This document shows positions 4,538 through 14,883 of a DNA stretch of 64,000 bases, one piece after another (within the stretch, counting starts at the first letter, position 1; each line of letters begins with the position of its first letter). A model generated the notes under the pieces. It was not told where the DNA came from. It worked only from the letters and a program-made list of their open reading frames with translations, and searched no databases. Source of the stretch: Okamejei kenojei (Eukaryota); the NCBI GenBank assembly GCA_035221665.1, contig CM069135.1, positions 68,696,001 to 68,760,000 of the forward strand, read 5' to 3'. A program made the translations under genes and the position numbers.

Positions 4538-5878
4538 CAATGCACAGATTTTGTGGCTGAAGATGAAACAATGGTACTTCCCACTGACCCCAAAGAAACT
4601 GAGTTTGAACAATATTTCACGAATTAGCTCTGGAGGATCTCAGATGTCAAGCAACTGCATGTCATCAGGCAACCCGAATCACCATTTATCATCAATAAAA
4701 AGTTAAATTAGTTCAAATATGTGAAATGCTGTTAAGGTTACTCTTTTCTGAAGATTAGATTGCAGAACGTTGGTAAGCAGAACACCTTGTGTAGGATCAA
4801 GGAATTATTGGTTACATTTTCTGTGATTCATGTTTAAATGACACACAACAGCAAATGCATAGCTTTGCCACCATTTATGCATCAATATTTAAGTCATAAT
4901 CGTTCTTAGTTGAATGAAAAGAGTCAAGCATTAGACTCGTTTTACATTGTGTGTTTACTTAGTCATGCTGATCTGAATTCAAATGTACCGCTTCTGAATA
5001 GAATAATTTTACAGATCATACATCACAACAAATAAATGCTTATTTGGTAAAGTCAAAGCATGAATTTCACTGCATCATGGGTTGTGTGTTGGTCAAATTC
5101 CTGTTTTCTGTGAAATTCCTGTTCAGCTGTGAAATGCATCAGTGATGATGTCCAACTTCCAGTCTCTGGTAGATTTAGAAGATCTCATGATGTTATAATG
5201 AAATAAAAGTAGAAAATAACTTAACTCATTGTTCTCCCAATATCCAAGTCAACATTTATCCTTTCACCAAAATCAGTAAAACATGTAATTTATCTTAATC
5301 TTGTTAGTGAGGTCTTGCTCTCACAATCTAGTAGCCAAATATGCGTGCAGCAAAATAATATCATTGGCTGTTGAAATATTTGAGATTTGGCAAATTCGAG
5401 AAGACAAGCTAGCTTAATATCTATTGTAAATTGAAGGATTATATCTGGGTTTCTACTGGTTACAGAACTCTATACCATCAAAATAACGGATTGGTTTCTT
5501 GCAGATCTTAAATAAAAAGAGTTTTTTTTAAAAATGTAGTTGAAAGTTTATATAAATCTTGTAAACGTGTTAAAATCCATCTAGACAGATTTGCAGCATA
5601 AAATGGGCTATTAGCAAAACTATGTTACAGAGATCTTACAGAAATGATAAAGTGTTTAAGAAAGAACTGCAGATGCTGGAAAAATTGAAGGTAGACAAAA
5701 ATGCTGGAAAACTCAGTGGGTGAGGCAGCATCTACGAAGCAAAGGAATAGGTGACGTTTCAGGTCCAGACCCTTCTTCAAACTGTTGTGGGGGTGGGGAT
5801 GGGGGTGGGGGTGGGGGTGGGTGGCAGGAAGAAGAAAGGAAGCTTGGCGATCGCTTCGCCCAACACCTGCACTCAGTT

Positions 5879-8341
5879 CTTTTTTTTTAAATTTCAAAAT
5901 AGACTTTATTCAGGTAATAAATATATACAATACATGAACCATGCGAAAAATTCACCAACATTTTCGGAAGCTGTACAAATTGTTCAATACAGTCTATATA
6001 CATTGCTCAAATTTCACAAATCTGTCCCCCACCCATGCCACTCATATGGCCCCCGGCGTGGGAAACCTTCCCTTATTTTGAGAGGTATCTCCACCATACC
6101 GTGCCCCCCATGTCCAGCAGCAGAAGGACCCTAGACTGTGGTCCTCCCCCACCGAGCCTTGGCGTTGGCTGCACCGAGCTTCAGTGCGTCCCTCAGCACG
6201 TACTCCTGCAGTCTGCAGCGGGCCAGTCGGCAACATTCCCTGATGGACATCTCGCACTGCTGGGTGGTGAACAACGCTCGGGCAGACCAAAGAGCGTCTT
6301 TTACCGAGTTGATGACCTTCCAGCAGAACTCGATGTCAGTCTCTGAATGTGTCCCTGGGAACAGTCCGTAAATCACAGAGTCCTCTGTGACGGAGCTGTT
6401 CGGGATAAAGCTTGCCAGGGACCTTGCATACTTCACCAGACTCTCTTTGCAAATCCACGCTCTGCAAAGAGGTGGGGAACCGTCTCCTCTCCATAGCAGC
6501 CGTCCCGAGGGCAGCGTGCGCTGGTAGTGAAGTTCCGGACGTGGAGGAAGGATCTGACTGGGGTGGGGGGGGGGGGGCTCCCCTCACCGCCAGCCAAGCC
6601 AGGTCTTGGTGGTTGTTGGTGAGCTCTGGCGATGAGGCATTTTGCCAGACGAGCTGGGCAGTCTGCTCTGGGAACCACGCCACCAGATCCATTGAGTCCT
6701 TTCCCTGCAGTGCCTGCAGGACGTTCCGTGCTGACCACTGCCCGATGGACTTGTGGTCAACGGTGTTGGTCCAGAAGAACCTTTCCACGAACGACAAATG
6801 GGGCGGCAATGTCCAGCTGACTGGCACATTGCGTGGCACCTGCGGCAGTCCCATCCTTCGCAATACCGGGGACAGGTAGAACCTCAGCAGGTAAAGATAC
6901 TTGGTGCCCACGTGCCTTGGCTCTACACTCTGCCTGATGCAGCCACACACAAAAATGGCCATCAGGGTGAGGGCGACGTTGGGCACGCATTTACCCCCAT
7001 TGTCTGCAGACTTGTGCATTTTGGTCCGTCGCACCCGGTCTATCCTCAATCCCCAGATGAACTGGAAGACGGTGATCCCTATGGCGTAGGTGGGATAGGC
7101 CACACTTGCCCCAAGTACAGCAGCCCCAAGAGCACCTCACACCTGATGACCAAATTCTTTGATGACCAAATCCCGAACCAGATCCCCAGCACCTTCAAGA
7201 AATCAGGCTTAATGGTGAAGGGGACGGAAGATCGGTCAGGCCAGTTGCCAAAGAGCATGACCTCGCTCTTCCTGCGGTTCACCCTGGCTCCAGTGGCCGA
7301 CTCAAACTGGTCGCAATCAATCTGCGGACCGACGCTGGATCCGAGCAGAAGATGGCGACATCCTCCATGTACAGGAGGTTTTGACTTGAGTGCCCCCACT
7401 GCCTGGCAATGCCACTCCTCTTATGCTCGCATCCTTCCTGATGAACTCGGCAAAAGGTTCAATACTGCAGACGAACAAGACAGGAGAGATAGGGCAACCC
7501 TGCCTGACTCCAGACCTGATGGGGAAGCTGCCTGATCCCCACCCATTGATTTGGACTGCACTACAGATATCGGTGTAGAGCAGTTTGATCCAATTTCGGA
7601 TTCCCTCCCCAAAGCCCATTTTGGATAACATGTCCCTCATGTACGTGTGTGATATCCTATCGAAGGCCTTCACTTGGTCCAAGCAGGATGACTAGGCAGG
7701 CATCCACCCGTCTGTCCTGCACGTAGGCAATGGTATCTCTCAGCAGCGCTAGACTGAGATTTTCCTGCCAGGTACAGCACAGGTTTGGTCCGGGTGTATT
7801 ACCCGTCCCAGAACAGACTTGACCCGGTTGGCGATGGCCTTCGACAGGATCTTGTAGTCTACATTCAACAATGTGATGGGTCTCCAATTTTTATATCCTT
7901 CATCTCCCCCTTCTGCTTGTAGATTAGGGTGATGTTGCCCTTCCTCATGGAGTCTGACATGCTGCCGGCTAGAAGCGTGTCGTTGTACACTTCCAGCAGG
8001 TCGGGGCCCATCCAGTCCCACAGAGCCGAACACAACTCGGCTGGTAAGCCATCACTTCCAGGAGTTTTACTCGAGTCAAAGGAACGGATGGAGCCAGTCA
8101 GCTCCTCTTGGGTCAGTGGTTGGTCCAGACTCTCCCACTTGCTGGCCTCCAAGACCTCCGTGATTGAGGACAGGAAGTTCTGGGACGCAGTGCTGTCTGT
8201 GGCCTTTTTGTCATACAAATCCGTGTAAAAGGATTTGCAGATCCTCAGCATGTCCGCCTGCGAGGGTGCTACCGAGCCGTCCTCCTCCCCAAGGCTGTTC
8301 ATCACAGAGCTCCCCCCGTAAACCTTATGGAAGAAGAAACG
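5879..8341 (-). mobile_element. Tx1-clade LINE copy A (5'-truncated; frameshifted RT and C-terminal region)
   Basis: ORF pieces KTPGSDGLPAE, NWRPITLLNVDYKILSK, DQVKAFDRISH, SGVRQGCPISPVLF, ending LGAANAKARWGRTTV. A-rich tail at 5880-5888. TSD cacct(g/c)cactcagtt at 5864-5878 and 8342-8356. Confidence 0.9.
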
Positions 8342-8359
8342 CACCTCCACTCAGTTTGT

Positions 8360-9718
8360 TTTTTTTTATTTCAAAATATACTTTATTCAAATGATAAATA
8401 TATACAATACATTAACCTTGCGGAAAATCTATCCGACATTTTCGGAGGCTGTACAATAGATCAATACAGGTTAGACATTTCTTTCCCCCAAATTTCCACA
8501 AATCAGTCCCCCACTCGTGCCACAATGGCGTGGGATACCTTCCCTTATATTGAGGGGCGTCTCCACAATACTGTACCCCCCATGTCCAGCAGCGGAAGGG
8601 CCTTAGACTGTGGCCCTCCCCCACCGAGCCTTGGCGTTGGCTGCACCGGGCTTCAGTGCGTCCCTCAGCACATACTCCTGCAGTCTGCAGCGGGCCAGTC
8701 GGCAACATTCCCTGACGGACATCTCGCTCTGCTGGGTGGTGAACAATGCTCGGGCAGACCAAAGGGCGTCTTTTACCGAGTTGATGACCCTCCAGCAGCA
8801 CTCGATGTCAGCCTCTGAATGTGTCCCTGGGAACAGTCCGTAAATCACCGAGTCCTCTGTGACGGAGCTGTTTGGGATAAAGCGTACCAGGGACCCTTGC
8901 ATTTTTCTCCAGACTCTTTTAGCAAACCCACACTCTGTGAAGAGGTGGGCAACCGTCTCCTCGCCATAGCAGCCGTCCCGAGGGCAGCGTGCGCTGGCAG
9001 TGAGGTTCCGACGGTGCAGGAAGGATCTGACTGGGAGGGCTCCCCTCACCGCCAGCCAAGCCAGGTCTTGGTGCTTGTTGGTGAGTTCTGGCGATGAGGC
9101 ATTTTGCCAGACAAGCTGGGCAGTCTGCTCAGGGAACCACGCCACCGGGCCCATAGAGTCCTTTCCTTGCAGTGCCTGCAGGACATTCTGTGCTGACCAC
9201 TGCCCGATGGACATGTGGTCAAAGGTGTTGGTCCGGAAGAACCCTTCCACCGACGACAGATGGGGCGGCAATGTCCAGCTGACTGGCACATTGCGTGGCA
9301 CCTGCGCCAGGCCCATCCTTCTCAACACCGGGGACAGGTAGAACCTCAGCAGGTAGTGACACTTGGTGCCCACGTGCCTTGGCTCTACATTCCGCCTGAT
9401 GCAGCCACACACGAAGGTGGCCATCAGAATGAGGGCGACGTTGGGCACGCTTTTACCCCCGTTGTCTGCCGACTTGTACATTGTGGCCCGTCGCACCCGA
9501 TCCATCCTTGACCCCCAGATGAACTGGAAGATGGCCCGGGTGATCCCTGTGGCGTATGAGGGAGGGACAGGCCACACTTGTGCCAAGTACAGCAGCCCCG
9601 AGAGCACCTCACACCTGATGACCAAATTCTTTCCCGTTATGGAGAGGGAGCGTTGCCTCCACAGCTCCAGCTTCCTCCCCACCCTGGCTATCCGCTCCAG
9701 CCAAATTTTGTTACATGC
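8360..9718 (-). mobile_element. Tx1-clade LINE copy B (5'-truncated; ORF2 C-terminus intact, ORF 8603-9682)
   Basis: 359-aa uninterrupted frame with LSITGKNLVIRCEV and zinc knuckle CPRDGCYGEETVAHLFTEC. Closely similar to copy A. A-rich tail at 8360-8367. TSD ctcagtttgt at 8350-8359 and 9719-9728. Confidence 0.9.
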
Positions 9719-12700
9719 CTCAGTTTGTAATAACCAACTTGATCTCCCGGTGGCTCAGCACTTCAACTCCCCATCCCATTCCGAATCCGACCTCTCTGTC
9801 CTGGGCCTCCTCCATGGCCAGAGTGAGTCCCACCGCATATTGGAGGAGCAGCACCTCATATTTCGCTTGGGTAATTTACACCCCAGCGGTATGAACATGG
9901 ACTTCTCAAATTTCAGGAAGTCCTTGGTTTCTCCCTCCTTCCTCTCACCTTCCCAGCTCTCCCACCGCCTACTGTCTCTGCCTCCTTTCTTTTTTCCCGC
10001 CCCCCCACCCCACATTAGTCTGAAGAAGGGTCTCGACCCGAAACATCGCCTATTTCCTTCGCTCCATAGATGCTGCCTCACCCGCTGAGTTTCTCCAGTA
10101 TGTTTGTCTACCTTTTACAGAAATGATAGATCATTCCATTTTTAAGCTTTGATAATTTCTGCAGATAAAATCAATTGTTTCGTTGAGGCATGTATGTTTG
10201 ATTTTTATGGATTTTAATTGTCAAAACAGCAAATATTACATGTATAATTTATCAAAACCTTTAATAGCTTTACAAAATCATGTCAAGTGTAAACAGTAAA
10301 TCAGCATTATCCAAAAAGCTTTATCTATTTTAAATCAGTGTGTTCATTTGGCAGGAACAAAATTGATAAATACAAATACAACATCCTCAGCCATCTGCTT
10401 TGTTTTAAAGTGTTAATGTCATTGTCGACAAGTTAATGAACTCTGTTAACTAAAACTTAATCACATATTAAATGTTAATTGCATCCTGCCAAGACTAACC
10501 ACTGCATATAATAATCTAATGGTTTCTACCAGTCAGATTTCTGCTGTTGAATTTGAGTGCTTTTTTTAAAAAAACAAGCAATTTATTTCTCTCCACAAAT
10601 CAAAAATGGTCTTTAGTGTTAAAGGTCCAAGAGTCCCAGTTTGAATAATGCATGAAGTTTACACAGAGTTGCACTGAAATGCTTCTTCCACTGGGATTTA
10701 TTAAAATACAGTGGAGTACACTAAAAGCAAAGTCGTAATATGTCAACTTGAACAATGGAGAAACATTGTAATATATGACATATTTGTTTTTAAAAAAAGC
10801 ACTTTTGTGCTTAAAAAGCACACTTTGTACTTTACATCATTTAGAAGCATGGCTGCTCATTACAACACAGTTATGGGTAGCTGAGTTTTGAGGTTTTGAG
10901 AAATATCACGCATGAAGTACATCACATATCAAAGTGAAGTATAAGAAATAAAGTGGATGAGCTTGAGGCCCAGTTAGAAATTGGTAAGTATGATGTTGTG
11001 GGAATTACAGAGACATGGCTGAAGAGGATCAGAGCTGGGAACTGAATATTCAGGGGTATACGTCCTATCGAAAAGACAGACATGTGGGCAGAGGGGGTTG
11101 GGTGGCTCTGTTAGGAAGGAATGAAATTCAGTCCCTTGCTAGGAGTGACATAGAATCAGACGATGTAGAGTCATCGTGGATAGAACTGAGAAATTGTAAG
11201 GGTAAAAGGACCCTAATGGGAGTTATCTACAGGCACCCAAACAGTAGCCTGGAGATAGGATGCAAGTTGCATCAGGAGTTAAAATTAGCATGTAACAAAG
11301 GTAATGCTACGGTGGTTATGAGAGATTTTAACATGCAGGTAGACTGGGAAAATCAAGTTGGTACTGGACCCCAAGAAAGGGAGATTGTAGAGTGCATCCG
11401 AGATGGATTCTTAGAGCAGCTTGTACTGGAACGTACCAGGGAGAAGGCAATTCTGGATTTAGTGTTGTGTAATGAACCGAATTTGATAAGGGAACTCAAG
11501 GTAAAGGAATCATTAGGAGGTAGTGAACATAACATGATAAGTTTTAATCTGCAATTTGAGAGGGAGAAGGTAAAATCGGAAGTGTCAGTATTGCAGTTGA
11601 CAAAGGGGACTATGTTGGCATGAGGGAGGAACTGGACAAAGTTGACTGGAAAGGGACCTAAGCAGTGATGACGGTAGAACAGCAATGGCAGGTGTTTCTG
11701 GGAATAATCCAGAAGATGCTGGGTAATTTCATTCCAAAGAGGAAGAAAGATTCTAAGGGGAGTAAGAGGCAATAGTGGCTGACAAGGGAAGGACAGTATA
11801 AAAATAAAAGCGAAGACATATAACATAGCAAAGATGAGCGGGAAGCCAGAGGATTGGGAAACTTTTAAAGATCAACAGAAGGCAACTAAAAATGCAATAC
11901 AGGGAGAAAAGATGAAGTATGAAGGTAAGCTATCCAAGGATATAAAGCAGGATAGTAAAAGCTTCTTTAGGTTTGTGAAGAGGAAAACATTAGTTAAAAC
12001 CAAAGTTGGACCATTGATGACTGAAAAAGGTTAATTTATTATGGGTAACAAGGAAATGGCAGATGAGTTGAACAGATAATTTGGTTCTGTCTTCACTAAG
12101 GAAGACACAAACAATCTCCCAGATGTACTAGGGGACAGAGGTCCTAGGGTGACGGATGAACTGAAGGAAATTAACATTAGTTAGGAAATGGTGTTGGGTA
12201 GACTGATGGGACTGAAGGCTGATAAATCCCCAGGGCCTGATGGTCTGCATCCCAGGGTACTCGAGGAGGTGGCTCTAGATATTGTGGACGCATTGGTGAT
12301 CATCTTTCAATGTTCTATAGATTCTGGATCTGCTCCTGTGGATTGGAGGGTAGCTAATGTTATCCCACTTTTCAAGAAAGGAGGGAGAGAGAAAGCAGGG
12401 AATTATAGACCAGTTAACCTGACCACGGTAGTGGGGAAGATGCTGGCGTCGATTATCAAAGATGTAATTACGGCGCATTTGGAAAGCAGTAACAGGATCG
12501 TTCTGAGTCAGCATGGATTTACGAAGGGGAAATCATGCATGACAAATCTGCTGGAATTTTTTGAGGACGTAAGAAGTAAAATGGACAAGGGAGAGCCAGT
12601 TGATGTAGTGTACCTGGACTTTCAGAAAGCCTTTGATAAGGTCCCACACAGGCGATTAGTGGTCAAAAGTGGAGCACATGGTATTGGGGGTAGAGTGTTG

Positions 12701-13293
12701 ACATGGATAGAAAATTGGTTGACAGACATGAAACAAAGAGTAAGGATTAACTGGTCCCTTTCAGAATGGCAGGCAGTGACTATTGGGGTGTCACAAGGCT
12801 CGGTGCTGGGACCGCAGCTATTTACAATATACATTAATGATTTAGATGAAGGAATTAGAAGTTACATTAACAAATTTGCAGATGACACAAAGCTGGGAGG
12901 CGGTGTGAACTGTGAAGAGCATGCTGTGAGGATGCAGAGTGACTTGGACAGGTTGGGTGAGTGGGCAGATGCATGGCAGATGCAGTATAATGTGGATAAA
13001 TGCGAGGTTACTGGAGGCAAGAAAGATAATGCAGATTATTATCTGAATGGTGTCAGGTTAGGAAAAAGGGAAGTACAATGAGATCTGGATGACCTAGTAC
13101 ATCAGTCACTGAAAGTAAGCATACAGGTACAACAGGCAGTGAAGAAAGCTAATGGCATGTTGGCCTTCATAAGGAGAGGAGGTTCACGAGGCTGGGAAGG
13201 CAGTACTGTCATATGATGAAAGAATCGAGTGACTGGTCTCACTGGAATTTAGGATGAGAGGGGATCTTATAGAAACACAAAAATTATTAAGGG

Positions 13294-14883
13294 TTACACA
13301 AAAAGCTGGAGAAACTCAGCGGGTGCAGCAGCATCTAAGGAGCGAAGGAGATAGGCGACGTTTCGGGTCGAGACCCTTCTTCAGACTGGTCAGGGATCAG
13401 GGAAACGAGAGACATAGACGGTGATGTGGAGAGATAAAGAACAATGAATGAAAGATATGCAAAAAAGTATCGATGATAAAGGGAACAAGCCATTGTAAGC
13501 TGTTTGTGGTGTGAAAATGAGAAGCTAGTGCGACTAGGGTGGGGGAGGGAGATAGAGATAGAGGGAATGCCAGGGCCCGAGGGCTGAGGGAGAGGTGGGA
13601 AGGGGAGGAGACAGCAAGGGTTAACAGAATTGAGAAAATTCAATGTATAATGTGGATAAATGTGAGGTTACTGGAGGCAAGAAAGATAATGCAGATTATT
13701 ATCTGAATGGTGTCAGGTTAGGAAAATCCATCCCCTATTCCCAATTCCTCCATCTACGCCACATCTGCTCCCAGGATGAGGTGTTCCACACCAGGTCATC
13801 ACAAATGGCCTCATTCTTCAGAGAACGGGGATTCCCCTCCCCCACTATTGATGAGGCTCGCACCAGGGTCTCCTCCATACCCCGCAACACTGCCCTCTCT
13901 CCCCATTCCCCCACTCGCAAACAGGGCAGAGTCCCCCTGGTCCTCACCTTTCACCCCACCAGCCGGCAAATACAACACATAGTCCTCCGCCAGTTTCGCC
14001 ACCTCCAACGTGACCCCTCCACATCTTCCCATCTCCCCCCCGTCTGCCTTCCGCAAAGACCGCTCCCTCCGCAACTCCCTTGTCAATTCTTCCCTCCCCT
14101 CCCGCTCTACCCCTTCCCCGGGCACTTTCCCTTGCAACCGCAAGAAATGCAACACTTGTCCCTTCACCTCCCCCCTCCACTCTTTTCAGGGACCCAAGCA
14201 GTCCTTCCAGGTCCGACAGAGGTTCACCTGCACCTCCTCCAACATCATCTACTGCATCCGCTGCTCCAGATTGCCAGATGATCTATATCGGTGAGACCAA
14301 GCAGAGGCTGGCGATCGTTTCGCCGAACACCTCCGCTCGGTCCGCAAAAAACCAACCCGACCTCCCGGTGGCTCAGCACTTCAACTCCCCCTCCCATTCC
14401 GTATCCGACCTCTCAGTCCTGGGCCTCCTCCACGGCCAGAGTGAGCAACACAGCAAGTTGGAGGAACAGCACCTCATATTCCGCTTGGGGAGTCTGCATC
14501 TTTTGGGCTTGAACATTGAATTTTCTCAATTCTGTTAACCCTTGCTGTCTCCTCCCCTTCCCACTACTCCCTCAACCCTCGGGCCCTGGCATTCCCTCTA
14601 TCTCTATCTCCCTCCCCCACCCTAATCGCACTAGCTTCTCATTTTCACACCACAAACAGCTTACAATAGCTTGTTCCCTTTATCATCGATACTTTTTTGC
14701 ATATCTTTCATTCATTGTTCTTTATCTCTCCACATCACCGTCTATATCTCTGACCAGTCTGAAGAAGGGTCTCGACCCGAAACGTCGCCTATCTCCTTCG
14801 CTCCTTAGATGCTGCTGCACCCGCTGAGTTTCTCCAGCTTTTTGTGCAACCCTCGATTCTCCAGCATCTACAGTTCCTTCTTT
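13294..14883. mobile_element. Penelope-like element (Neptune-type): inverted pLTR, RT-thumb/Zn-finger/GIY-YIG fragment (+) and pLTR
   Basis: Motifs SIPYSQFLHLRHICS, RVPLVLTFHP, CNRKKCNTC, FTCTSSNIIYCIRC, IYIGET, VAQHFNSPSH, EEQHLIFRL. Terminal repeat in inverted (13294-13644) and direct (14538-14883) orientation. 14-bp TSD aaaattattaaggg at 13280-13293 and 14884-14897. Confidence 0.92.
14759..14786 (+). ncRNA. Minimal type I hammerhead ribozyme-like core in a Penelope pLTR
   Basis: CUGAAGA-a-GGGUC-uc-GACCC-GAAACGUC: conserved CUGANGA and GAAA boxes, 5-bp helix II, palindromic ACGU at helix III, GUC triplet. Helix I is only ~2 bp. Identical cores at 54461-54488(+), 13357-13384(-) and 54075-54102(-). 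Confidence 0.6.

What the first reader, a model, noticed from the sequence alone, without database searches (positions are those of the whole stretch)
5844..9760. Two independent Tx1 LINEs inserted at the same site in a Penelope GIY-YIG gene: candidate Penelope-targeting retrotransposon
Seen: the Penelope endonuclease sequence ...caacacctccactcagtttgtaataacc... (QHLHSVCNN) is interrupted by two same-orientation Tx1 copies. They have different 5' truncations and separate, overlapping TSDs: 15 bp (5864-5878/8342-8356) and 10 bp (8350-8359/9719-9728), with 3' junctions about 3 nt apart. Separate TSDs and truncation points argue against a simple tandem duplication. Established: many Tx1-clade families are sequence-specific (Tx1L into Tx1D transposons, Keno into U2 snRNA, Dewa into tRNA arrays, Kibi/Koshi into microsatellites). 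Inference: this family may target Penelope elements, a target I do not know to be described.
Basis: partly seen in the sequence, partly recalled or inferred. Interest (0 to 1): 0.7.

Follow-up and report, generated by a model that had tools for sequence, protein, structure and literature searches.

The report
U2-targeting retrotransposon with Penelope hotspot
A jumping gene that inserts into U2 splicing-RNA genes has also put about one in seven of its copies at one narrow spot inside another jumping gene (Penelope), likely because it recognises a loose DNA signature shared by these sites, which gives a snapshot of how such elements may change targets.

Summary
Observation confirmed: two independent Tx1 copies (about 88% alike, separate target-site duplications) sit at one site of a Penelope GIY-YIG fragment. 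The site is a real genome-wide hotspot. 27 of 176 sampled 3' ends (15%) lie there, about 1% of Penelope copies are hit (about 1,000-fold over chance), 97 of 100 listed junctions fall in 14 nt, and use is one-directional. All 32 poly(T) insertions examined there are this family. But it is not a dedicated Penelope-targeting family. It is Keno-type: full-length copies have U2 (some U1+U2) heads, and 17 junctions lie in U2 genes within 3 nt of the published Keno site (about 6% of U2 matches). A site in another LINE's RT gene is hit at an estimated 2% per copy. Most copies are dispersed at plain Y|R nicks. The strong sites share a degenerate motif 3' of the nick; support for it is moderate. Transposon-preferring Tx1 families are known (Tx1-Mar); my paper searches found no Penelope target. 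The scan noted similar Tx1 stacking and snRNA heads on other DNA before. New variant of a known kind.

The parts
5709..5843 (-). Inverted piece of the Penelope tail; the host Penelope copy is 5'-truncated and lacks the outer arm of the hairpin upstream of the site
   Evidence: inverted arms 5709-5843 vs 9980-10092
5843..5879 (+). Penelope GIY-YIG fragment left of the insertions (catalytic-core region, ...QHLHSV)
   Evidence: uninterrupted relative L178 hits GIY-YIG
5864..5878 (+). TSD of copy A, left copy (probably 16 nt with C5879; inferred)
5880..8341 (-). Copy A: older, 5'-truncated, frameshifted Keno-type Tx1 copy (91% to intact copy L108)
8342..8359 (+). Regenerated target between the copies: right TSD of A (8342-8356) overlapping left TSD of B (8350-8359)
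8360..9718 (-). Copy B: younger, 5'-truncated Keno-type Tx1 copy (98% to L108), open ORF2 C-terminal frame
9719..9728 (+). TSD of copy B, right copy
9729..9745 (+). Candidate recognition motif 3' of the nick (12 of 17 positions match the U2 target read on the nicked strand; counted by eye)
   Evidence: motif model
9719..10092 (+). Rest of the Penelope GIY-YIG end and tail

Best explanation
These are two sequential insertions of a U2-headed, Keno-type Tx1 family that inserts into U2 snRNA genes, into one strand-specific site of the Penelope GIY-YIG gene, into a site in another LINE's RT gene and at dispersed Y|R sites, and it likely chooses its strong sites because its ORF2 protein reads a degenerate motif (about RATAMY-N1-2-ACYYGAY) 3' of the nick. 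Shown: the hotspot, its strand, its family specificity, the U2 niche and the independence of the copies. Inferred: copies in U2 (and U1) genes are the transcribed masters, which explains the snRNA heads. Also inferred: Penelope is a sink that leads in numbers because it offers more than 19,000 good sites; each insertion leaves the motif on the 5'-end side, so the next copy stacks there (A first, then B).
For: Penelope site: 27 of 176 ends in two positional samples; 198 matches on 19,121 anchors; 97 of the first 100 listed junctions within -6..+8 (hand tally); 32 of 32 poly(T) junctions examined are this family; none of 10 opposite-strand matches lies at the mirror site. Independence: lengths, TSDs (7-19 nt) and identities (74-98%) differ, and target classes are interleaved in a 141-sequence tree. 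Keno: Rfam U2/U1 heads; 17 of 22 matches are true U2 genes, against 280 U2 22-mers. Motif: a model trained on the U2 and two Penelope sites ranks the RT-gene hotspot (L116) in the top 0.1% and a third recurrent site (L087/L292) in the top 1% of control windows, and scores 64 dispersed sites above controls, p=2e-4. Polarity: in 7 of 7 Penelope-site tandems the copy on the motif side is closer to the intact element. In the window a C kept at 5879 reads T in both TSDs of B.
Against: The motif was found after the fact. I saw its likeness to the RT-gene and L087 sites by eye before building the model, so those ranks are not blind. With the nick context implanted in the controls p rises to 0.01, and a U2-only model gives p=0.12. 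Three of four simple motif versions show no excess. The second Penelope subfamily matches U2 at only 7 of 15 positions yet is hit often. Nicks lie from about -11 to +8 of the motif start, not at a fixed distance. All 17 U2 junctions are on three contigs (15 on C37), though U2 matches are spread over many chromosomes, so context or array amplification also matters. Tandem polarity over all sites is only 14 vs 5, p=0.06, and most differences are 1.5-3 points.
Confidence: 0.62

Rival explanations
1. DNA structure: the nick sits at the 3' foot of an imperfect inverted repeat in Penelope, and the endonuclease cuts the extruded hairpin or cruciform.
For: The 60 nt 5' of the nick are the most stable (or tied most stable) of 82 windows in 2 of 3 Penelope copies and 4th in the third; z = -3.4 and -3.6 in two copies of one subfamily. 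12 of 128 dispersed left flanks have z<-2, against 4-5 in control windows.
Against: No overall shift at dispersed sites (p=0.33). z is only -1.1 to -2.0 in four copies of the other subfamily. The mirror site on the other strand is unused. Copies lacking the outer arm are hit: the window (twice), L097, L110, L252, L253, L345, though some arms may have been lost later.
Confidence: 0.13
2. A dedicated Penelope-targeting family or subfamily, selected to use Penelope as a safe haven.
For: Penelope is the largest single target (27 of 176), with a sharp, one-directional, family-specific site used by old and young copies.
Against: About 85% of ends are elsewhere; U2 genes (17 of 280) and the RT-gene site (5 of 176 ends, 3,933 sites, about 2%, range 0.6-4.4%) are hit as often or more per copy; no Penelope-specific clade is seen (resolution among young copies is low).
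Confidence: 0.1
3. RNA-assisted targeting: the U2-derived head of the element's RNA pairs with the nicked strand 3' of the nick and helps pick U2-like sites.
For: The head contains the U2 stretch complementary to the motif, and the motif lies on the nicked strand 3' of the nick.
Against: Similarity to U2 alone predicts sites poorly (p=0.12; 11 of 18 matches occurs in three registers near the site). PMC4494074 (passage) states that target choice is mainly set by the endonuclease.
Confidence: 0.07
4. Hitch-hiking or artefact: one Penelope-Tx1 chimera was amplified, or the tandem is an assembly duplication.
For: A few junctions are duplicated (L002/L012, L112/L113, L254/L255, L348-L352).
Against: Penelope-site copies differ in length, TSD, nick position and subfamily, and sit in two Penelope subfamilies; A and B are 12% diverged.
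Confidence: 0.02

Closest known systems
Keno (Tx1 clade, U2 snRNA gene-specific; PMC4640811 section 6 and passages, PMC6136364 passages)
   Same: AP-type endonuclease-RT ORF2; same-sense insertion in U2 genes near nt 36-39; 3' flank is U2 sequence.
   Different: The main junction is 3 nt upstream of the published 3' target start. Under 1% of copies are in U2 genes; most are dispersed or in retroelement hotspots.
Crocodilian Tx1-Mar / SINEU (PMC4494074, passages and section 15)
   Same: That group clusters with Keno, has U1/U2 heads, prefers fixed positions in abundant transposons, makes sequential tandems that sandwich a TSD, and shows weak to strong preference (SINEU-2 13%, SINEU-1 23%).
   Different: Their targets are Mariner-N4 or LTR elements, and Harbinger for Tx1-9_AMi. 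Here the targets are a Penelope endonuclease gene and a LINE RT gene, with the U2 niche still in use.
Tx1L of Xenopus (inserts in Tx1D; passage in PMC4494074; the primary paper was not held)
   Same: A Tx1 element using another transposon as target.
   Different: Its target is a non-autonomous piggyBac DNA transposon.

Membership tests
Keno | Tx1-type ORF2 with AP endonuclease and RT | tested here: met
   L108 ORF2: Exo_endo_phos, RVT_1, zf-RVT; ORF1 with CCHC knuckles seen in the translation
Keno | Insertion at the conserved U2 site, same sense | tested here: met
   17 U2-gene junctions, within 3 nt of the published site for 14 and 6 nt for 3; L210 has both U2 halves and a 10-nt TSD
Keno | Most copies confined to U2 genes | tested here: not met
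   17 U2 junctions against 2,685 3' ends; 0 of 176 sampled ends in a U2 gene, 1 in another copy's U2 head. Hence 'Keno-type', not filed as Keno proper
Keno | RT groups with named Keno families in a tree | not testable with these tools
   Two protein searches returned no sequence labelled Keno, Dewa, Kibi, Koshi or Tx1-Mar; nearest named hits are unnamed amphibian proteins (56-57% in RT)
Tx1-Mar group | U1- or U2-derived 5' head | tested here: met
   Rfam U2 above cut-off in 6 of 9 loci scanned, weak U1 in 3; heads printed
Tx1-Mar group | Preference for Mariner-N4-like transposons | tested here: inconclusive
   No repeat library to label flanks; the two largest flank clusters are Penelope and a LINE RT
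Target-specific family (PMC4494074 criterion) | More than 20% of flanks in one sequence type | tested here: inconclusive
   15% at the site, CI 10-22%; below the line but the interval touches it, and further ends lie elsewhere in Penelope or its tail
Penelope-like element (host) | GIY-YIG endonuclease and inverted terminal piece | tested here: met
   the Penelope RT was not examined

The most novel reading that the evidence does not exclude
A Keno-type LINE caught in a target switch, in which the U2 snRNA head of its own RNA helps select U2-mimicking DNA, so that the catalytic core of Penelope's endonuclease gene has become its main landing site: RNA-assisted targeting by an AP-endonuclease LINE.
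Probability: 0.07. Interest if true: 0.85.

Novelty: new variant of a known kind. Interest (0 to 1): 0.42.

Why it matters
How site-specific LINEs change target, for example from U2 genes to transposons as in the Keno and Tx1-Mar group, is usually read from end points. Here one still-intact family uses the U2 site, two retroelement hotspots and background sites side by side, with hundreds of natural insertions and an intact ORF2 (L108). That makes the determinants of Tx1 endonuclease specificity directly testable and adds Penelope to the list of targets. As biology it extends a known theme rather than opening a new one.

Tried and rejected
Generic T-rich preference or attraction to the first copy's tail: rejected. 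Strong consensus at dispersed sites: only Y|R (Y at -1 in 60 of 73, R at +1 in 60 of 73) and a weak A at -4. A strict TGATCT motif: rejected, since Penelope copies without it are hit and it is not enriched. General fragile site used by many poly(A) elements: 32 of 32 are this family; elements without a poly(A) tail were not tested. Hairpin as general determinant: p=0.33. Tree with named Tx1 families: no labelled references. Other species: the family's 3' end is held by runs of several coded organisms (no RNA holder listed), but laying two contig sets and two read sets on a Penelope stretch gave no usable junction data, so conservation of the hotspot in relatives is open. The window locus was not checked against reads. 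Rfam finds nothing in the window. Literature: 7 full-text searches showed no Tx1 family with a Penelope target; Repbase Reports and most subscription papers, including Kojima and Fujiwara 2004, are not searchable, and the supplements of PMC4494074 (target tables) were not read, so a prior description cannot be excluded.

Full report
Observation. The window (G000:C5, a 2.76-Gb genome; 'skate' comes from an earlier scan note and my recall of the repeats, not from a test) holds a 5'-truncated Penelope copy with an inverted tail piece. Its GIY-YIG core is split by two minus-strand Tx1 copies, A (5880-8341) and B (8360-9718), 87.8% alike, with TSDs of 15 nt (one mismatch) and 10 nt. An uninterrupted relative of the host matches Pfam GIY-YIG. 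A is 91% and B 98% identical to an intact full-length copy, L108. A C kept at 5879 reads T in both TSD copies of B, so A came first and B inserted beyond A's 5' end, in the regenerated target (inferred).

How much of the family is at this site. A 20-nt tag of the 3' end occurs 2,685 times. Sample 1: 90 regions covering 97 of the first 100 listed matches; 3 were not this family, leaving 94. The script placed 10 at the site and I added L110 and L146 by eye (12 of 94; L082 is borderline at -12 and L089/L090 may be a local duplicate). Sample 2: rows 11-92 of the 100 listed, 15 of 82. Together 27 of 176, 15% (CI 10-22%); 17 of the 176 are inner copies of tandems. In the 30 best-identity loci, 4 of 33 ends were at the site, the window's own included.

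How sharp and specific. A Penelope anchor 42 nt upstream occurs 19,121 times and is followed by the 3' tag within 200 nt 198 times, about 1% per copy against 0.13-0.2 expected in total. By hand, 97 of the 100 listed junctions lie from -6 to +8 of the main nick (one with an unusual 3' end). A stricter pattern gave 33 of 1,413. On the other strand there are 10 matches: 1 independent insertion about 95 nt away, 5 near-identical junctions on small contigs, 1 ordinary hotspot insertion in an inverted Penelope piece, and 3 not of this family; the count of that anchor alone was not measured. All 32 distinct poly(T) junctions examined at the site, a subset of those listed, belong to this family. Lengths, TSDs and identities vary, and Penelope, U2, RT-gene and dispersed copies are interleaved in a 141-sequence tree of 450-nt 3' ends (support values not examined).

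What the family is. Full-length copies begin with the U2 snRNA 5' part, some with a U1 piece in front. A search for the U2 site next to the 3' tag gave 22 matches, 17 in true U2 genes (15 on C37; two of the 17 look like duplicates) and 5 in or beside the heads of other copies. The main junction is 3 nt upstream of the Keno 3' target quoted in PMC6136364 (passages) and of nt 39 given in PMC4640811 (section 6). With 280 U2 22-mers this is about 6% per match. So the element works like Keno but is not confined to U2. I could not place it in a tree with named families.

Penelope is not the only hotspot. Five of 176 ends fall within 13 nt in an RT gene of another LINE (RVT_1; 'Rex1-like' is my recalled label). 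Its 15-mer occurs 3,933 times, which gives about 2% per copy (0.6-4.4%). Smaller recurrent sites exist (L087/L292, L290/L342; L002/L021/L297). The 73 TSD-defined sites outside the hotspot show only Y|R (that set still holds a few tandem-derived and Penelope-derived sites, removed in later tests).

Mechanism. The Penelope, RT-gene and U2 sites share a degenerate motif on the nicked strand at or just 3' of the nick. A model trained on U2 and the two Penelope subfamilies scores 64 dispersed sites above controls (p=2e-4; 7e-4 without the two RT-gene sites), p=0.01 with the nick context implanted in the controls, and p=0.12 for U2 alone. One of four simple motif versions was enriched (16 of 61 vs mean 7.5). 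In 7 of 7 Penelope tandems the copy on the motif side is the younger-looking one; over all 22 tandem pairs it is 14 vs 5 with 3 ties, p=0.06. A hairpin ends at the nick, but it is not general (p=0.33), the mirror site is unused and arm-less copies are hit. I therefore favour protein recognition of a loose motif (0.62). This step is inferred, not shown.

Known and new. PMC4494074 (passages and section 15 read; supplements not read) already describes Keno-related, snRNA-headed Tx1 families that prefer fixed positions in Mariner and LTR elements, another that prefers Harbinger, weak preferences of 13-23% for SINEU-1 and -2, and sequential tandems around a TSD. Seven searches showed no Penelope target, but Repbase Reports are not covered; PMC13269885 (passages) held nothing on it. 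Earlier scan notes report similar stacking and snRNA heads on other DNA. New here: the Penelope endonuclease gene as the main sink, and one family using U2 and two retroelement sites together. Verdict: real, new variant of a known kind, interest 0.42.

Noticed in passing
L196-L210 (G000:C37, 15.7-20.5 Mb): A cluster of U2 snRNA genes carrying at least 15 insertions of this family; candidate master locus. How many are independent and how many were amplified with the array is open.
   Followed up: partly
L105, L114, L131, L156, L257 (5' ends): Full-length copies with a U1-like piece added in front of the U2 head (Rfam weak U1 in L114, L131, L156; the others by eye), and repeated U2 target fragments inside the head.
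   Followed up: partly
L116, L139, L268, L277, L279: Second hotspot, antisense in the RT gene of another LINE; L085 lies in the same RT region of a related copy in the opposite orientation (by eye).
   Followed up: partly
L002, L012, L021, L297: Recurrent insertion at one nucleotide near the 3' end of a further repeat (Rex1-like by recall); the motif is not obvious there.
   Followed up: no
L348-L352 (small contigs C309, C527, C692, C1050): One opposite-orientation insertion in Penelope present in five near-identical copies; probably an amplified segment or unplaced repeat array.
   Followed up: no
L169:1508-1557 and other Penelope copies: A roughly 50-nt imperfect inverted repeat inside the GIY-YIG coding sequence (z about -3.5 in one subfamily); it may matter for Penelope RNA or DNA.
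   Followed up: partly
G000 C1-C8 (listing): Many dispersed U2 22-mer matches (100 listed on C1-C8), probably pseudogenes; none carried this element at the Keno site, unlike the clustered genes.
   Followed up: partly
window 10994-13081 and 13634-14294: A decayed endonuclease-RT LINE of another type (Pfam hits) and further Penelope pieces close by.
   Followed up: no
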